Assembly: GCF_964204865.1 (NCBI RefSeq)
Contig: NC_135250.1
Span: 27,218,001 to 27,282,000 of the forward strand
Direction: 5' to 3'
DNA: 64,000 nucleotides
Origin: Styela clava
Taxonomy: Eukaryota
Shown here: piece after piece, positions 31,001-40,000 of the stretch
Layout: each line of letters begins with the position of its first letter
Numbering within the stretch: position 1 is the stretch's first letter
Made by a program: the position numbers

Positions 31001-34000
31001 GAAAGACGTACTTGCTGCAATGTCGCGAGCTGCAGTATATTTATCTGCTGAATCAAGTTTAGCGAACATGAGTAATTTTTTCAGCATTTCAAAGTAAACC
31101 CAGGCAGAAATGGCGGAAGAAGAGTTGACCATTTGCCTTTGTTCTTTAGACCTGCATGTTGCCTATAGAAAAACTAAACTTGATAATGAACTTAACAGTC
31201 AAAAAGCTAGGCCGATGGTTAACGAAAATGCCACTACCCTTCCTCAGTTAGTCCGCTTTAGGTTGACGGGGACGCGATATTGGACGGTTAGTTGGGTGAC
31301 AACTTCACGATCCCTAGATAGCCATGGCGACCCATTTAGACGTAACTTTGATTTATTTTCCACGGAACACTCGGGAGACGATTGAGAAACGCTGTGTTAG
31401 AGCATGCTCCGAATTGACAGTGGCGAATTATTCACAAGGGTTCACAACTCTTAGTCGAATCAAAATGGATGAGATTGAAAACGTTGAAGGTGATTACAAG
31501 AAACTTAACGAACTCAAATATATATATCAGTATGGGTTACGCGAGACCAAACTGTTTTTACTTTATAAATTCGCGTTAGTGGATACGTATTATATGCGTA
31601 CAATGTAATGACGCTATAGCGGGGATAAATATGACTATTCTATGTAATAATTCAAGAGTCACAATTCACACAAACGTCACAATAACAAATGTATTTTTGA
31701 GATGTTTCGTCTGATCAAAGTCAAGTTTCCTCAGACAAGCGCTTTAAAACAAGCATAAGCGTAATATCATACGCGAGGGGTTTTCTGAACTGCTCGTTGC
31801 CGCAGGCGATCGTTCTAATATTTTCTCAACGGTTTATACCACTTGTACTATTTCTACCACTTGAACTACTCATAACTCTATTCAGCGTGTAGCACTTGTC
31901 GATAATTAGTGCGAACTCGTTTTCGTCATCAGTCTCAGTCGTGTGACAGGGTACAGTCAGAGCTGTTGTCGGTATGATTGGGTTATTGCGTAAAATTTGA
32001 TTTAATAACTACCTATGCCATGTGGATATATATTGGTAGTATTTATCGAGCAGTGGTCAAATTGATAAGTAGTAAGGATTTATATGCTTCCAAAATGTTC
32101 AGAAATGTCGCTAGATGGATGGCAATCATTTCAGTTCGATGTCTTTTGAAGCAAGCGAGCTTATCCTGAAATGTAAACACGGGGAAATCATCAACTCAGA
32201 CAAGAATCGTCCTAATTAGAGCCCAATTACTGGAAAAGAGCTGACATGGTTTCCAAATCAGCTCAATAGGCAAAACAGATTTTGATTTGGATCCCGAGAA
32301 GCATGCTAACAATAAATAAATTACCTAATTTCCATACATGCTTTGTTTATGATGATGAATTTCGCAAGCAAATACCAGTGATGCCTCCCAAAACTTTTGA
32401 CTGTTACCAGTTTCGGAATTACTTTAGCATTGCATTTGTAATCATTAACATCCACCTCAATTCATTCCGTATGCGGCTGTTGTGGTGTAGGATGCTATAG
32501 CCGGAGTTTATACATCTTCAATTTTTCCCCCGTGTGGCGCAGTGGCATCATGTGCAAGGGGATTGCTAAAGTGCTTTTCTCAGACACTTACACTTGTACT
32601 ATTTATATCACTTGAGCTGCTCGTATCATTTATTCAACGTGTACCACTTGAACGACATGTCGGTACTAAGTGTGGACTTTTAGTTTAGTTTTTGCTGATC
32701 TGTGGTATTCTATCATTTACCTTGGAACACTAAGAGTGGTAATCCGTATTATTGAGTTCAGTGGTGCATTTGAATCGGCAAGTAGTGAGTTATATGTTTC
32801 CAAAATGTTTTCAAATAATGGAAATTCGGAAATCCTGATAAATAAAAGACATTTCTTAGGCTGAAATTAGCTGCCAATATTGTTTGAAGGTTGTTGATAG
32901 GGCCCTAGACCAGTTTCACACGCCAACTTGCGAAAAGAACCTCTCAAAATGAGCATCGAATTTTTCCCCCAGGGTTAAAGGTCGAGTATACACTCACGCT
33001 ACAAGCGTTTGAATATCATATTCCTGTACCGGTATTCGGTGGAATGCTTTTGTTTGCTAGGGCTAGCGACATGCCATGAATGTACCTCGTTTACCTGTTT
33101 ACAGTTAACTTGTTTTGTATAAATGCAGCAGGCAGGCATTGCTGCAAATAACAGAATAATGCTGCATGTCAATTACAGAATTGTGAGCATGTGGTAGTGC
33201 ACTACCGGTATTTGTAGGCGTAACTAGTCCAGTAGAGTGTTCAGACGCTTTTTTTTGTATTGATCGCCGCCTTATTCTTTATTTGCATACGTGCTTATAG
33301 TCTATCTGAATAATCAGGTATTACATTGTTGTTTTTTGCTATTTTTTCAAATTTATTCTCCTAAATACTGAAATAATTCTTGCTTTCTTATTGATACATT
33401 CATGCGATTGGTGTGTGTGTAATGAGTTGAGAAATTTGACTTAGTTGAATAGATACAAGCCACACACATACCGGTACTGCTGCTGTGACTACCCAACCAA
33501 CAAAATAACACCAAACAAAAATGTGATCTGAAATTTTAATGTAAGTAAGAAAAGTCTGTATGACGCAGATAGAAACACATGTTCAGTTCGAATCAAACCA
33601 ACTCAATTTTTAACTAAGCAGGTACCGGTAAGCTATGTCTCATGCTGCTTTAAACATTTGGGTTGTAACATTTGGGTTGTATTTTTACATCACATTTTTG
33701 TTTGGCATTGGTTAAGCAGTTACGGTACGCTGTTGACTTTACGAGACCCCAGGACTTTATATACGGTAACACCCTGTATATTTCATTTGACTCTCAAAAC
33801 TGTAAAAATGGAATAAACTTATACTTTTTATTGTTTTATACCATATTAATTTGAACATGTAATAAAAACAACTCACCATCATCAAATATGGGATTTACTG
33901 TACTATCTGTTGGATTTAAAATTACTTGTTATATATCTATATGTACAGCTAATACGTAAAGCTTTAGCAAAAATGGATCTGAATAAATTCAATGGTAATG

Positions 34001-37000: not shown

Positions 37001-40000
37001 AAAGTTATTATAACGAGTCTGGATTTGATAGGTGATCACAAAAGGAAGAACCTAGATCATTAGGTTCTTATTCTAGCTGGTTCTCAACCAGTGGGCCATG
37101 GCCCCCACTGCTGGGCCACAGGAACATTTTCAAGTGGGCCACAGACCTATTAAAAATTGCTTAGATTTGTCGATAAAGTTAGTTGAATTTGATGGTAGTA
37201 GCAATAGATGATGCAGTTTTTTGTTACAGAGCGGTGATTTTCACTTAATTATTATTAAACTGAAAGTGTCTATTTTCGCAGAATGAATTCTATGTTTTTC
37301 TTGAAGTTTTTCCCTCGCAAGAAAATATTAGTGGGCCACAGAATTTTTGTGCAACGAAAATGGGCCACGAAAAAAAAAGGTTGAGAACCACTAAGTAAAT
37401 ACAATATTACATTTGTGCAAAGCCTCCTAAATTACTGAAACTTCTGGGTACAACGAACAATCATACACAAATTCTACTGAATTAATTGAGAAATTTATGG
37501 ATTTTGTTTTTTTCTTTATTTGGTGAGGGAAGCCGTTCGATGCATTTAGCTACCTAATAAAGGACCTGAAATCTTGTTAACTTATAATTTAATGACTAAA
37601 AACGGCCGCATGTGCTGTTCAAATTTCATAAAATACAAATATAAAGTATTACATACAATTGTATAATAATTACGGTAATTCATTATTACAATATGTCAAA
37701 CACACAGCGTTCATTTTTGTGTTTCACAGATCAACCAAAACAAGATGAGGAAGATTTATTTTGCCGAGGTCTCGCAATGAAACTCAGAACTCTTGATCCG
37801 CTTAAAAGATCACAAATCAAACTTCAAATTCAAATGTTGCTTCATAACATACAGTTTTCAGAATGCCCAGTTTCGTTTGACAACGGAATTAATTTTGGGC
37901 TTAATTCTTGATCTTGCTTGGTTGCTGCTCAGAAAAAAACTTGCCCACTGTACAAGGATGTCATATTGGGCATTGACCATGAAATATTTGAAATCTCAGA
38001 CTACTTAGTAGATCTTGTATTCGAGTGTGTGTAGCATGGCTTAGTTAGTAGCAGGGTGACCAAAACAAACATTTTATTAGTTTTTAAAATTAGTTATATT
38101 TGATATATTAAATCCCTATCTTTGAGAATATTTTAAAATCTAATTTCATTCTACTATTTTAAACTGTTGATACTTGGACCAATAGTAGTCATTTTTTGGT
38201 AACACTGGAAAAGTGTGTATCAAAAATTGGTTATATTCGATATAGCAAGTCTTTGATTTTAGTGATAGTTTGGAATATTTCAATACTAAATTTTGTTATT
38301 TTAACTATTGATACCTAATAACCAGAGACCAATAGTAGAATTTATTCACTTTTTGTCACAGTATAAAAGTGAAAGCCAATGTTTATTTTGACTGCCAGAG
38401 AATCTCCCTAATTTGCTCAAGCGCACTCTATCAGCACTGCCATCTTTGTTTCTGATGAATTAATCAGGCAAAGAAAGTCTATATGTCATTCATGGCCTAT
38501 GAAAACAATATTTGACATTGATGACATAGCCTATAATGTTGACTTGCACAAATTACACCGTTCTAAAACATTTTTGTTCGGAATATTAAATATTTTGGCA
38601 TCTGCCATCCCTGGTTTGTAGTAGATTTAATCATAACAGATATTTGCAATCAATGTACAATGCGGTGGTACAAGCATGACTTGTTTGAAGCTTTGTTATG
38701 AGTAAAGGTACAATTGGACATTTCAAAAATATAAACTTTGTTTTTTAAAATAACCAATATCAGCTTTAACTGTATTAATAAAGGGTGAAACTTGAAAAAG
38801 CTGCATTACGCAAATGAGTCTAAATATATTTTTGATAAACATCTAACTTTTTTTTGAAATATTGCTTCTATCTAAGATTAGATAGATACTGGGTAAAACA
38901 CCAACTCCGCCATAATGTTTCCAATTTCTTTTTTTTTTTGAATTTCAGCATTCTTTTTTCTTGAAACCCTGTTATAGCATTGGCTCACTTGTTACTAATA
39001 AGGACTTTTCGTTTCACAATAAAACCTCATTCTAATGAAAGAGTACCTGACCTCTTTAGTGTTCCCAAACTTTATATTTTATTTTACCAATTTCGTTTGC
39101 ACTGTATTAATTGTAACTAAAATCAGTGTTTTACTGCTTCAATAAACAATCATGTCAAAATTTTTTATCGTTTGATCAGTAAACAAATTGAAGACCATGA
39201 TTGAAGATATGTAAAATCAGTAAAAGAATTGCATTTTATTCCACATGAATATGAGTTTAAAAATTGAAGAATAATTTAAAATGGAGAATTCAGGCATTTG
39301 AGGTACAGATTTTTGATTTTACATTTTATAAAATCAGATATACGAATTAGATTTCATTCAGCACCATTATGAGATTAAAAATTGAAGAATAGTTTAATCG
39401 TAGAATTAAGGCATTTGAGGTAAATGTACTTCAGATTTTGATTTCATGAGCTCCACTGGATGCTGTCGCAATGTAGAATGTCGCATTACCACTATACTTA
39501 TTTGTTATGTAGTTCACTACATCTTGTACATATTTTGCATAAAGGAGAGTGACTGTGCATCCTCCAAAACCACCACCAGTCATTCTGCTTCCAAGGACCC
39601 CTTCACATTCTAATGCAGCTGCTACTAGTTCGTCAAGTTCTGCACAGCTTACTTCATAATCATTCTGTAAAGAGTTATGACTTTGCACCATTAGTTTGCC
39701 AAACTCAACATAGTTTGATTGTTGAAGGGCTTTCGCTGCTTGTTGCGTTCTTTCTATTTCACCAATAACATGTCTAGCCCGCTTAAAAACAACATCAGAC
39801 ATTGCGTCTTTATTTGTATTTAAGTCTTCCATAGAAGCAGATCTCAAACTTTTCTTTTTCATTATTGCAGCAGCCTCCATGCATTGTCTCTTTCGTGTTG
39901 GGTACTCGCTTCCAGTCAGTTCATGACGTATGTTAGAATTGGTGATTAGAACCACAACATTGGGGTCTGACAGGGGAACGTAGATGCCCTGCATAGATTC

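What the first reader, a model, noticed from the sequence alone, without database searches (positions are those of the whole stretch)
33973..37911. Intact spliced gene fusing a MULE-type FAR1/WRKY-GCM1 zinc finger to a BESS motif: candidate new domesticated-transposon regulator
Seen: five phase-consistent exons, no stops, no DDE/MULE catalytic domain, no flanking TIRs. The N-terminal 'G.EF.SFDDF...C...GCP...HNH' finger is followed by a low-complexity linker with an IKEE SUMO-consensus and a C-terminal BESS-like helix. Known: FAR1/ZSWIM3-N fingers derive from Mutator transposases. BESS is a protein-interaction motif usually paired with MADF/Myb-SANT domains (Adf-1, Dip3, BEAF, Stonewall). Inference: a chimera able to bind DNA through a MULE finger and join BESS-mediated complexes, possibly a lineage-specific transcription factor or a TE/chromatin regulator. 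I do not know of this architecture being characterised.
Basis: partly seen in the sequence, partly recalled or inferred. Interest (0 to 1): 0.72.

Follow-up and report, generated by a model that had tools for sequence, protein, structure and literature searches.

The report
Transposon-finger gene with BESS-like tail
A sea-squirt gene keeps only the DNA-binding zinc finger of a Mutator-type transposase and joins it to a short helical tail resembling the insect BESS interaction motif, so it is probably a lineage-specific DNA-binding regulator that nobody has tested.

Summary
The five-exon gene exists as described: 33973-37911, + strand, GT-AG introns, 346 codons, no stops. It matches an annotated but uncharacterised Styela clava protein, LOC120335183 (345 aa), with the same junctions.

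Searched exon by exon, exons 1 and 2 hit consecutive parts of the ZSWIM3_N/FAR1 finger profile. Exon 1 passes Pfam's cut-off, and the C...C...H-x-H ligands are kept.

The window holds no transposase catalytic domain, no flanking terminal inverted repeats and no second copy.

The BESS call is probable but below threshold:
- Pfam gives E 0.003 and 17.8 bits against a cut-off of 21.
- In a local control, 3 of 88 non-coding frames gave unrelated hits just as good.
- Language-model look-alikes are BESS clusters.
- The peptide folds as the two helices described for BESS.

The IKEE motif is at chance level.

Best reading: a domesticated MULE finger tethered by a disordered linker to an oligomerising helical tail. 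Drosophila BEAF-32 has the same layout with a different transposon finger. This is a new variant of a known kind. Expression, DNA binding and self-association are untested.

The parts
33973..34280 (+). Exon 1: start codon and first part of the zinc finger, including the invariant Cys83 (34219-34221).
   Evidence: Read. ZSWIM3_N E 1.7e-6, 29.0 bits against cut-off 27.8, residues 22-92 (34036-34248) on profile positions 3-69. 100% identical to P0001 residues 1-102. Cys83 is invariant in alignment A1.
34866..34982 (+). Exon 2: second part of the finger, with Cys (34882-34884) and His-Asn-His (34957-34965).
   Evidence: FAR1 E 0.0012 on profile 57-87/90 and ZSWIM3_N E 0.025 on profile 73-102/102. 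It aligns to the second half of the fingers of P0004 (7 of 7 units) and P0005 (6 of 7 units with C-P...H-N-H kept; one unit has H-D-H). Identical to P0001.
35310..35415 (+). Exon 3: Ser/Asn-rich linker of 35 codons.
   Evidence: No Pfam family at E 10. 49% S/T/N/P/Q/G. 2 differences from P0001.
36398..36725 (+). Exon 4: the linker continues for about 48 residues (36398-36541), followed by a helical region (36542-36721).
   Evidence: No Pfam family. Single-sequence AlphaFold2: residues 1-48 mostly pLDDT below 50; helices 49-79, 85-88 and 94-108; mean pLDDT 61. 4 differences from P0001.
37730..37911 (+). Exon 5: BESS-like two-helix motif (37753-37845), a short tail and the TGA stop (37909-37911).
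   Evidence: BESS E 0.003, 17.8 bits against cut-off 21, residues 8-38 on profile 4-34/35. Atlas BESS clusters score 0.90 and 0.89. Predicted helices 2-19 and 23-39, pLDDT 78. Identical to P0001.

Best explanation
This is a host gene of the ascidian Styela clava that descends from a Mutator-like (MULE) transposase. It has kept only the transposase's N-terminal WRKY-GCM1-type zinc finger (ZSWIM3_N/FAR1 group, about 140 residues, exons 1-2). A disordered linker of about 85 residues follows (exon 3 and the first half of exon 4). The protein ends in about 100 helical residues whose last two helices resemble the BESS motif (exon 5).

Proposed mechanism:
- The finger binds a specific DNA sequence. 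This is inferred from the family.
- The BESS-like tail makes the protein pair with itself or with other BESS proteins. This is inferred from fly BESS proteins.
- The flexible linker would then let several fingers of one complex reach separate sites.

The protein would therefore act as a multivalent, sequence-specific transcription or chromatin-architecture factor, as Drosophila BEAF-32 does with a BED finger.

Shown here: gene structure, domain content, loss of the catalytic core, and amino-acid differences confined to the linker. Inferred: expression, DNA binding, oligomerisation and the regulatory role.
For: Gene structure:
- Canonical five-exon structure.
- The same junctions occur in the annotated protein P0001.

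Finger:
- Exon 1 passes the ZSWIM3_N cut-off, and exon 2 continues the same profile.
- The Pfam list stored with P0001 holds PF21599, PF20783 and PF03101.
- Atlas look-alikes of exon 1 are ZSWIM3_N clusters, scoring 0.96 with 210 of 256 features.
- The ligand residues are kept: Cys83, and C-P...H-N-H in exon 2.

Transposase ancestry:
- The nearest full-length relatives, P0004 and P0005, carry seven units each of the same finger plus RNaseH-like transposase domains.
- No such domain is found anywhere in the window.

Not a mobile copy:
- There are no flanking terminal inverted repeats and no second copy in 64 kb.
- The neighbours are ordinary host genes: galactokinase, a CHORD-CS protein and a short-chain dehydrogenase.

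Constraint: between the window and P0001, 0 of 199 residues differ in exons 1, 2 and 5, against 6 of 144 in exons 3 and 4 (Fisher p 0.005).

BESS-like tail:
- Pfam E 0.003 covering profile positions 4-34 of 35, at the extreme C-terminus.
- Atlas BESS clusters at 0.90 (187 of 256 features) and 0.89.
- A two-helix prediction matches the description of BESS as about 40 residues, two predicted helices, and homodimerising (PMC10573801, passages).

Precedent for the layout: BEAF-32 has a single BED finger of about 80 aa, a middle region of about 120 aa with unknown structure, and a C-terminal leucine zipper plus BESS. Its BESS alone is sufficient for BEAF-BEAF binding (PMC5021357, abstract and passages).
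Against: - The BESS score is below Pfam's cut-off (17.8 against 21 bits), and PF02944 is absent from the Pfam list stored with P0001.
- In the local control, 3 of 88 non-exon frames gave unrelated Pfam hits with E of 0.004 or less. The E-value alone is therefore weak.
- The Atlas tool states that 4 to 10 in 100 shuffled proteins reach 0.9, and that a third of shuffled proteins also get ten concordant families.
- More than 80% of InterPro BESS proteins are from insects (PMC6411481, passage), so a tunicate BESS is outside the usual range.
- A two-helix hairpin is a generic shape. The fold search of PDB found nothing (best E 6.1).
- I saw no expression data. No orthologue was found: the exon 1 search of 1.84 billion representatives gave 7 proteins with E of 0.001 or less, and the best non-self identity was 37%. 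Conservation across species is therefore not shown.
- The conserved Trp that Babu et al. describe in strand 4 of the insert-containing family is absent here. It is also absent in P0004 and P0005.
- None of the 6 non-self relatives has a BESS hit at E 0.01 or less.
Confidence: 0.55

Rival explanations
1. The gene is a real domesticated finger-only protein, but the tail is not a BESS motif. It would be an unrelated amphipathic helical hairpin, and the protein would work as a stand-alone WRKY-GCM1 DNA binder, like the finger-only members already noted in animals and fungi.
For: - The BESS score is below cut-off.
- PF02944 is not in the stored Pfam list for P0001.
- 3 of 88 non-coding frames scored equally well for unrelated families.
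- BESS is mostly an insect motif (PMC6411481, passage).
- Finger-only members without a transposase domain are described in animals (PMC1702500, section 10).
Against: - It covers 31 of 35 profile positions and lies at the C-terminus, where BESS usually lies.
- Of the three best Atlas rows shown, ranks 2 and 3 are BESS clusters (PF02944 on 32% and 37% of members), while rank 1 (0.91) carries no common family. The tool reports that the ten best family-bearing hits agree.
- Helix-loop-helix prediction with pLDDT 88-89 in the core.
- Exon 5 shows no difference from P0001, while the linker shows 6.
Confidence: 0.22
2. The locus is not domesticated. It would be a young, internally deleted remnant of a MULE element, or a gene fragment captured and carried by one, that still has open frames by chance of age and has been picked up by gene prediction.
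For: - The closest full-length relatives are transposase-like proteins.
- No orthologue is seen.
- Introns hold several mobile-element-like repeats.
- The window also carries another transposon-type finger, a THAP frame inside a long inverted repeat at 55.8-58.4 kb.
Against: - No terminal inverted repeats bracket the gene. The only pairs with one arm on each side are 22-24 nt at 79-82%.
- No second copy of any exon occurs in the window.
- Word-based searches with exon 1 and exon 5 found only P0001, whose cluster has 2 member sequences.
- Identity to the nearest relatives is only 26-37%, which argues against a recent insertion.
- Four canonical introns interrupt the frame.
- Amino-acid differences avoid both domains.
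Confidence: 0.13
3. The five-exon model is a prediction artefact. Exons 1-2 would be a real finger gene or a relic, and exons 3-5 would be joined to them wrongly or not transcribed at all.
For: - I saw no transcript evidence.
- Exons 3 and 4 match no family.
- The junctions 2-3, 3-4 and 4-5 rest only on splice signals, on open frames and on an automatic model.
Against: - Exon 4 lies in a 150-aa open frame where 0.15 are expected per window.
- All junctions are GT-AG and in phase.
- The public model is the same.
- No other domain-bearing frame lies between or next to the exons that could claim exon 5. In 93 frames over 32.5-39.4 kb, no MADF or other DNA-binding domain was hit.
Confidence: 0.07

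Closest known systems
Drosophila BEAF-32A/B (BED finger plus BESS insulator proteins)
   Same: The layout is the same: one N-terminal zinc finger of a transposase-derived type, a middle region of about 120-145 residues without known structure, and a C-terminal helical region ending in BESS. The sizes are similar (about 283 against 346 aa). In BEAF the BESS alone is sufficient for subunit interaction (PMC5021357, abstract and passages).
   Different: The finger here is the WRKY-GCM1/ZSWIM3_N type linked to MULE elements, not a BED finger (no BED hit). The organism is a tunicate, not an insect. No sequence relationship outside the BESS-like 31 residues was shown. The resemblance is one of architecture, not of membership.
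MADF-BESS family (Adf-1, Dip3, Stonewall, CP60)
   Same: An N-terminal DNA-binding domain and a C-terminal BESS that homodimerises, about 40 residues with two predicted helices (PMC10573801, passages).
   Different: No MADF domain is found in any exon, nor in any of the 93 and 95 frames scanned around the gene and across the window.
ZSWIM1/ZSWIM3, DUF5575 proteins, plant FAR1/FHY3 and MULE transposases
   Same: The same N-terminal finger family (ZSWIM3_N, DUF5575_N and FAR1 models). FAR1/FHY3 are domesticated MULE transposases acting as transcription factors (abstracts listed).
   Different: Those proteins keep the RNaseH-like core, and usually a SWIM finger as well (PMC1702500 section 10; P0004 and P0005). 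This gene has neither.
Finger-only WRKY-GCM1 proteins derived from MULEs (Babu et al. 2006)
   Same: The finger is kept without the transposase domain, and the authors propose that such proteins were recruited as transcription factors (PMC1702500, sections 10 and 15).
   Different: The partner modules listed there are Zn-knuckle, isochorismatase, classic zinc fingers and PHD. The word BESS occurs 0 times in that text.

Membership tests
ZSWIM3_N / FAR1 finger (WRKY-GCM1 superfamily, insert-containing group) | Profile match at or above the curated cut-off | tested here: met
   Exon 1 alone scores 29.0 bits on ZSWIM3_N against a cut-off of 27.8, E 1.7e-6. Exon 2 continues the same profile (positions 73-102) below cut-off. 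FAR1 on exon 2 alone scores 19.9 against 28.1. The Pfam list stored with P0001 holds PF21599, PF20783 and PF03101.
ZSWIM3_N / FAR1 finger (WRKY-GCM1 superfamily, insert-containing group) | Metal ligands C...C...H-x-H with an insert between the two cysteines | tested here: met
   Cys83 is invariant in A1. The Cys of G-C-P and the H-N-H of exon 2 align with the fingers of P0004 (7 of 7 units) and P0005 (6 of 7 with H-N-H; one has H-D-H). About 25 residues separate the two cysteines.
ZSWIM3_N / FAR1 finger (WRKY-GCM1 superfamily, insert-containing group) | Conserved Trp in the fourth strand (PMC1702500, section 10) | tested here: not met
   The strand before H-N-H reads K-L-V-V-I-K-L-N and has no Trp. 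The same holds in P0004 and P0005. The paper says 'typically', so this is a subgroup trait rather than an exclusion.
ZSWIM3_N / FAR1 finger (WRKY-GCM1 superfamily, insert-containing group) | Four-stranded zinc-binding fold | not tested
   The domain spans exons 1 and 2. Folding it needs the joined product, and that step was left out.
BESS motif (PF02944) | Profile match at or above the curated cut-off | tested here: not met
   17.8 bits against 21, E 0.003, profile positions 4-34 of 35. In the control, 3 of 88 non-exon frames had unrelated hits with E of 0.004 or less.
BESS motif (PF02944) | About 40 residues forming two helices, at the C-terminus of a DNA-binding protein | tested here: met
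   Helices 2-19 and 23-39 of the exon 5 peptide, pLDDT 78. The motif ends 21 residues before the stop. The description of BESS comes from PMC10573801.
BESS motif (PF02944) | Mediates self- or hetero-association | not tested
MADF-BESS family | N-terminal MADF domain | tested here: not met
   No MADF hit in any exon at E 10, nor in the surrounding frames.
Autonomous MULE element / MULE transposase | RNaseH-like (DDE) catalytic domain | tested here: not met
   No Pfam hit in exons 3-5. tblastn with P0004 and P0005 matched only the finger exons at E 0.01 or less. No transposase family was hit in the 93 plus 95 plus 10 frames scanned.
Autonomous MULE element / MULE transposase | Terminal inverted repeats flanking the coding region | tested here: not met
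   13 inverted pairs were found in 30000-42000. Only two have one arm on each side of the gene, and these are 22-24 nt at 79-82%. The long pairs belong to a dispersed repeat with one copy inside intron 1.
Autonomous MULE element / MULE transposase | Multiple dispersed copies in the genome | not testable with these tools
   There is one copy in the window. No Styela genome was on hand, and the open collections hold only bacteria, archaea, phages, plasmids and E. coli.
BEAF-32 family | BED zinc finger | tested here: not met
   No BED family hit in any exon at E 10.

The most novel reading that the evidence does not exclude
BESS-type tails may be a recurrent partner for DNA-binding domains taken from transposases, well beyond insects. 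BED (from hAT elements) is paired with BESS in BEAF-32, and here a MULE WRKY-GCM1 finger is paired with a BESS-like tail in a chordate. MADF has also been linked to PIF/Harbinger Myb-like proteins, but that link is my recollection and was not checked. The Styela gene would then be an independently assembled, BEAF-like architectural or transposon-taming protein of tunicates. Its finger would still recognise the ends of a MULE family, and its tail would cluster the bound sites.
Probability: 0.15. Interest if true: 0.7.

Novelty: new variant of a known kind. Interest (0 to 1): 0.45.

Why it matters
Domesticated transposase fingers are a known source of transcription factors. Animal examples from Mutator-like elements are few and mostly keep the catalytic core.

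This gene has been reduced to the finger and then coupled to a small oligomerisation motif. That is the same design as the fly insulator protein BEAF-32, built from different parts in a chordate relative.

If the tail is a true BESS, two things follow. The motif would reach well outside the insects that hold more than 80% of known cases (PMC6411481). And 'transposon finger plus BESS' would be a repeatedly invented way to make multivalent DNA-binding proteins.

If the tail is not a BESS, the gene is one more lineage-specific finger-only protein of modest interest.

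Tried and rejected
- **Cluster look-up** for P0001-P0007 was not available, so the sources and names of P0002-P0007 stay unknown.
- **Alignment-based protein search** with lengths 'longer' took its length range from the 406-aa row. It searched 712-2030 residues only and found none among 6674 candidates. It therefore says nothing about 200-500 aa architectures.
- **PDB sequence searches** with exon 5 and exon 1 gave nothing below E 0.1.
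- **PDB fold search** with the exon 5 model gave a best E of 6.1.
- **tRNA and Rfam scans** of the window gave no hits, so the intron 1 repeat is not recognisably tRNA-derived.
- **Paper search** for BESS and MADF together with tunicate words was badly posed. It returned 884 papers, and the 12 listed were all ascidian biology, so it is uninformative.
- **Paper search** for BESS with WRKY-GCM1 returned 7 papers. Six are WRKY gene-family or WRKY DNA-binding studies and one is a bZIP/WRKY review. By their titles none concerns this architecture; their texts were not read.
- **COX6A reading.** I considered and rejected the idea that the COX6A hit at 33002-33172 (-) marks a head-to-head neighbour gene. 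The frame's sequence does not look like a COX6A exon to me, and I counted it as a chance hit.
- **Left out.** Every step that needs the joined five-exon product was left out: Pfam, database search, fold of the whole finger and fold of the whole protein. P0001 was compared with the exons but was not used as a query.
- **Closed.** The supplements of PMC10027918, which list animal FHY3-type genes, were not opened and might name related genes.

Full report
**What is in the sequence.** The window is AT-rich eukaryotic DNA (about 35% G+C) with no N. On the + strand, five open segments join through canonical GT-AG introns:

| Exon | Coordinates | Length | Phase after exon |
|---|---|---|---|
| 1 | 33973-34280 | 308 nt | 2 |
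| 2 | 34866-34982 | 117 nt | 2 |
| 3 | 35310-35415 | 106 nt | 0 |
| 4 | 36398-36725 | 328 nt | 1 |
| 5 | 37730-37911 | 182 nt | ends in TGA |

- The sum is 1041 nt, which is 346 codons plus the stop.
- The ATG at 33973 is the first ATG after an in-frame stop.
- From base composition, 0.23 frames of 144 aa or more and 0.15 of 150 aa or more are expected in the whole window. Two such frames lie here on one strand, 2.5 kb apart.

**Identity of the gene.**
- Searches with exon 1 and with exon 5 each returned a single protein, P0001: 'uncharacterized protein LOC120335183' of Styela clava, 345 aa, in a cluster of 2 sequences. The window is therefore ascidian DNA, not human.
- P0001 has the same four junctions.
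- Exons 1, 2 and 5 are identical to P0001. Exons 3 and 4 carry five substitutions and a one-residue gap.
- That is 0 differences in 199 residues against 6 in 144 (Fisher p 0.005).
- The overall 1.7% difference fits the 1.72% heterozygosity reported for this species (PMC7540406, one passage). I read the two sequences as alleles, with the changes avoiding both domains.

**The N-terminal finger.**
- Exon 1 alone passes the curated ZSWIM3_N cut-off: 29.0 against 27.8 bits, E 1.7e-6, profile positions 3-69.
- Exon 2 continues the same profile at positions 73-102 (E 0.025) and hits FAR1 at positions 57-87 of 90 (E 0.0012). Collinear coverage across the intron independently supports the exon 1-2 junction.
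- The Pfam list stored with P0001 names PF21599, PF20783 and PF03101.
- Atlas look-alikes of exon 1 are ZSWIM3_N clusters at 0.96.
- An exhaustive HMMER search of 1.84 billion representatives with exon 1 found only 7 proteins with E of 0.001 or less, self included, at 26-37% identity.
- Two of those, P0004 and P0005 (3186 and 3668 aa), hold seven units each of finger, RNaseH-like core (DUF5575, ZSWIM1-3_RNaseH-like) and C-terminal domain. These are arrays of MULE-type transposase units.
- Exon 2 aligns with the second half of the fingers in all 7 units of P0004 and in 6 of 7 units of P0005, keeping C-P...H-N-H; one P0005 unit has H-D-H.
- Cys83 of exon 1 is invariant among five aligned relatives.
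- The Trp that Babu et al. describe as typical of strand 4 is absent here and in those relatives.

**What is missing.**
- Exons 3 and 4 match no Pfam family, even at E 10.
- tblastn with P0004 and P0005 finds only the finger exons at E 0.01 or less. The next hit is E 0.13 on the opposite strand.
- Of 93 frames of 35 aa or more between 32.5 and 39.4 kb, none hits a transposase, MADF or any other DNA-binding family.
- Of the 98 frames of 70 aa or more in the rest of the window, 95 were scanned and the other 3. None hits a MULE, DDE, MADF or BESS family.
- No convincing inverted repeat brackets the gene. The long inverted pairs belong to a dispersed repeat of about 250 nt, with one copy inside intron 1 and one at 41.1-41.4 kb.
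- No exon is repeated in the window.
- The neighbours are ordinary genes: galactokinase tail-to-tail 1.5 kb downstream, a CHORD-CS protein and a short-chain dehydrogenase.

**The C-terminal motif.** Evidence for BESS:
- Exon 5 hits BESS at residues 8-38 on profile positions 4-34 of 35, with E 0.003.
- Atlas look-alikes of the 59-residue peptide include BESS clusters at 0.90 (187 of 256 features) and 0.89. All ten best family-bearing hits agree.
- Single-sequence AlphaFold2 gives helices 2-19 and 23-39 with pLDDT 88-89 in the core. This matches the published description of BESS as about 40 residues with two predicted helices that homodimerises (PMC10573801, passages).

Evidence against BESS:
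- The score of 17.8 bits is below the cut-off of 21, and PF02944 is not in the stored list for P0001.
- In my control, 3 of 88 non-exon frames gave unrelated families at E of 0.004 or less (COX6A, PLA1, OAF_C).
- The Atlas tool warns that shuffled proteins reach 0.9 in 4 to 10 of 100 cases.
- A helical hairpin is a generic shape, and the PDB fold search gave nothing.
- More than 80% of InterPro BESS proteins are from insects (PMC6411481, passage).

I put the BESS reading at roughly three in four.

**Linker and the SUMO remark.**
- Exon 3 and the first 48 residues of exon 4 are rich in S/T/N/P/Q/G (49% and 40%) and are predicted disordered.
- The rest of exon 4 forms helices 49-79, 85-88 and 94-108 at moderate confidence. 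The last ~100 residues of the protein (second half of exon 4 and the first two-thirds of exon 5) are therefore predicted mostly helical, followed by a ~20-residue disordered tail, much like the leucine-zipper-plus-BESS end of BEAF-32.
- IKEE is present at the start of exon 4. However, 2 psi-K-x-E/D matches are seen where 0.85 are expected, so it carries no weight.

**How it most likely works.**
- Shown: the gene structure, the finger family with intact ligands, the loss of the catalytic core, a single copy in the window, and allele differences confined to the linker.
- Inferred from the families: the finger binds specific DNA, as WRKY-GCM1 fingers of MULE transposases and FAR1/FHY3 do (PMC1702500, passages and section 10; abstracts listed).
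- Inferred from the families: the tail pairs with itself or with other BESS proteins, as in BEAF-32 and MADF-BESS factors.
- With a flexible spacer, such a protein would bind clustered sites as an oligomer. It would act as a transcription or chromatin-architecture factor, possibly on the ends of the MULE family it came from.

**Rivals.**
- A finger-only protein with an unrelated helical tail.
- A non-domesticated relic of a mobile element.
- A prediction artefact.

**Known and new.**
- The gene is already in public annotation, but only as 'uncharacterized'.
- The finger and the idea of finger-only derivatives are known (PMC1702500).
- A transposon finger plus BESS is known from BEAF-32, with a BED finger.
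- I found no description of a WRKY-GCM1/ZSWIM3_N finger with BESS. The word BESS occurs 0 times in PMC1702500 and in PMC10027918. The search for BESS with WRKY-GCM1 gave 7 WRKY or bZIP/WRKY transcription-factor papers, judged by title only. The search listed no paper combining 'BESS domain' with FAR1, ZSWIM3, MULE or FLYWCH among its 20 best of 134.
- A database-wide architecture count could not be made.
- I rate it a new variant of a known kind, of moderate interest.

Noticed in passing
34370-34611 (intron 1), 41088-41391, 54378-54478, 61561-61744, 51181-51226: A dispersed repeat of about 250 nt. The intron 1 copy and the 41.1 kb copy are inverted relative to each other and 79-91% alike (I1-I5). 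Further partial copies appear (D5, D19, D20). No tRNA or Rfam match was found.
   Followed up: partly
35433-35584 (intron 3) and 37078-37390 (intron 4): Two short elements with inverted ends, like miniature transposons: 29-nt arms at 72%, and perfect 12-nt arms. Styela clava is named among taxa with intron-creating transposons (PMC12130899, one passage). I did not test whether these introns arose that way.
   Followed up: no
55797-58408: A long palindromic structure. Arms 57193-57644 and 57730-58200 are 88-98% complementary, with outer arms 55797-55978 and 58221-58408. THAP-domain frames lie in both arms (57140-57397 +, THAP E 7.2e-6, above cut-off; the same peptide on the - strand in frame 58072-58404). 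It is probably a foldback or P-like mobile element, and is a second transposon-type finger in the window.
   Followed up: partly
2390-3118, 9837-10050, 14549-14763, 23572-23627, 29438-29569, 47297-47408, 48674-48894, 59266-59501, 61043-61130, 62805-62990, 63946-64000: An abundant interspersed repeat family sharing a CCTAACCCTAAC-like core, with at least 11 sites in 64 kb (D1-D16).
   Followed up: no
39434-40801 (-) and 42911-44056 (+): Galactokinase (456-aa frame; GalKase_gal_bdg E 2.8e-22) and a CHORD-CS protein (382-aa frame; CHORD E 3.1e-49) each lie in one uninterrupted frame. They appear intronless in a genome whose other genes here are split.
   Followed up: no
P0003, P0006, P0007 (89-120 aa) and Atlas clusters of 86-91 aa: The short relatives of exon 1 stop or lose similarity within a few residues of the point where exon 1 ends. 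The best Atlas clusters have representatives of 86-91 aa. This suggests that many relatives are first-exon fragments and that the intron splitting the finger is shared widely.
   Followed up: no
33002-33172 (-), 37632-37745 (+), 39168-39275 (-): Non-exon frames gave Pfam hits at E 0.0017-0.0039 (COX6A, PLA1, OAF_C). In this AT-rich DNA, Pfam E-values near 0.003 on short frames are not rare.
   Followed up: yes
3150-3419 (-), 10606-10935 (-), 19779-20006 (-): Likely exons of other genes upstream: MOLO1 (E 1.5e-5), CAP-Gly (E 0.0016) and a coiled-coil segment that hits many coiled-coil families.
   Followed up: no
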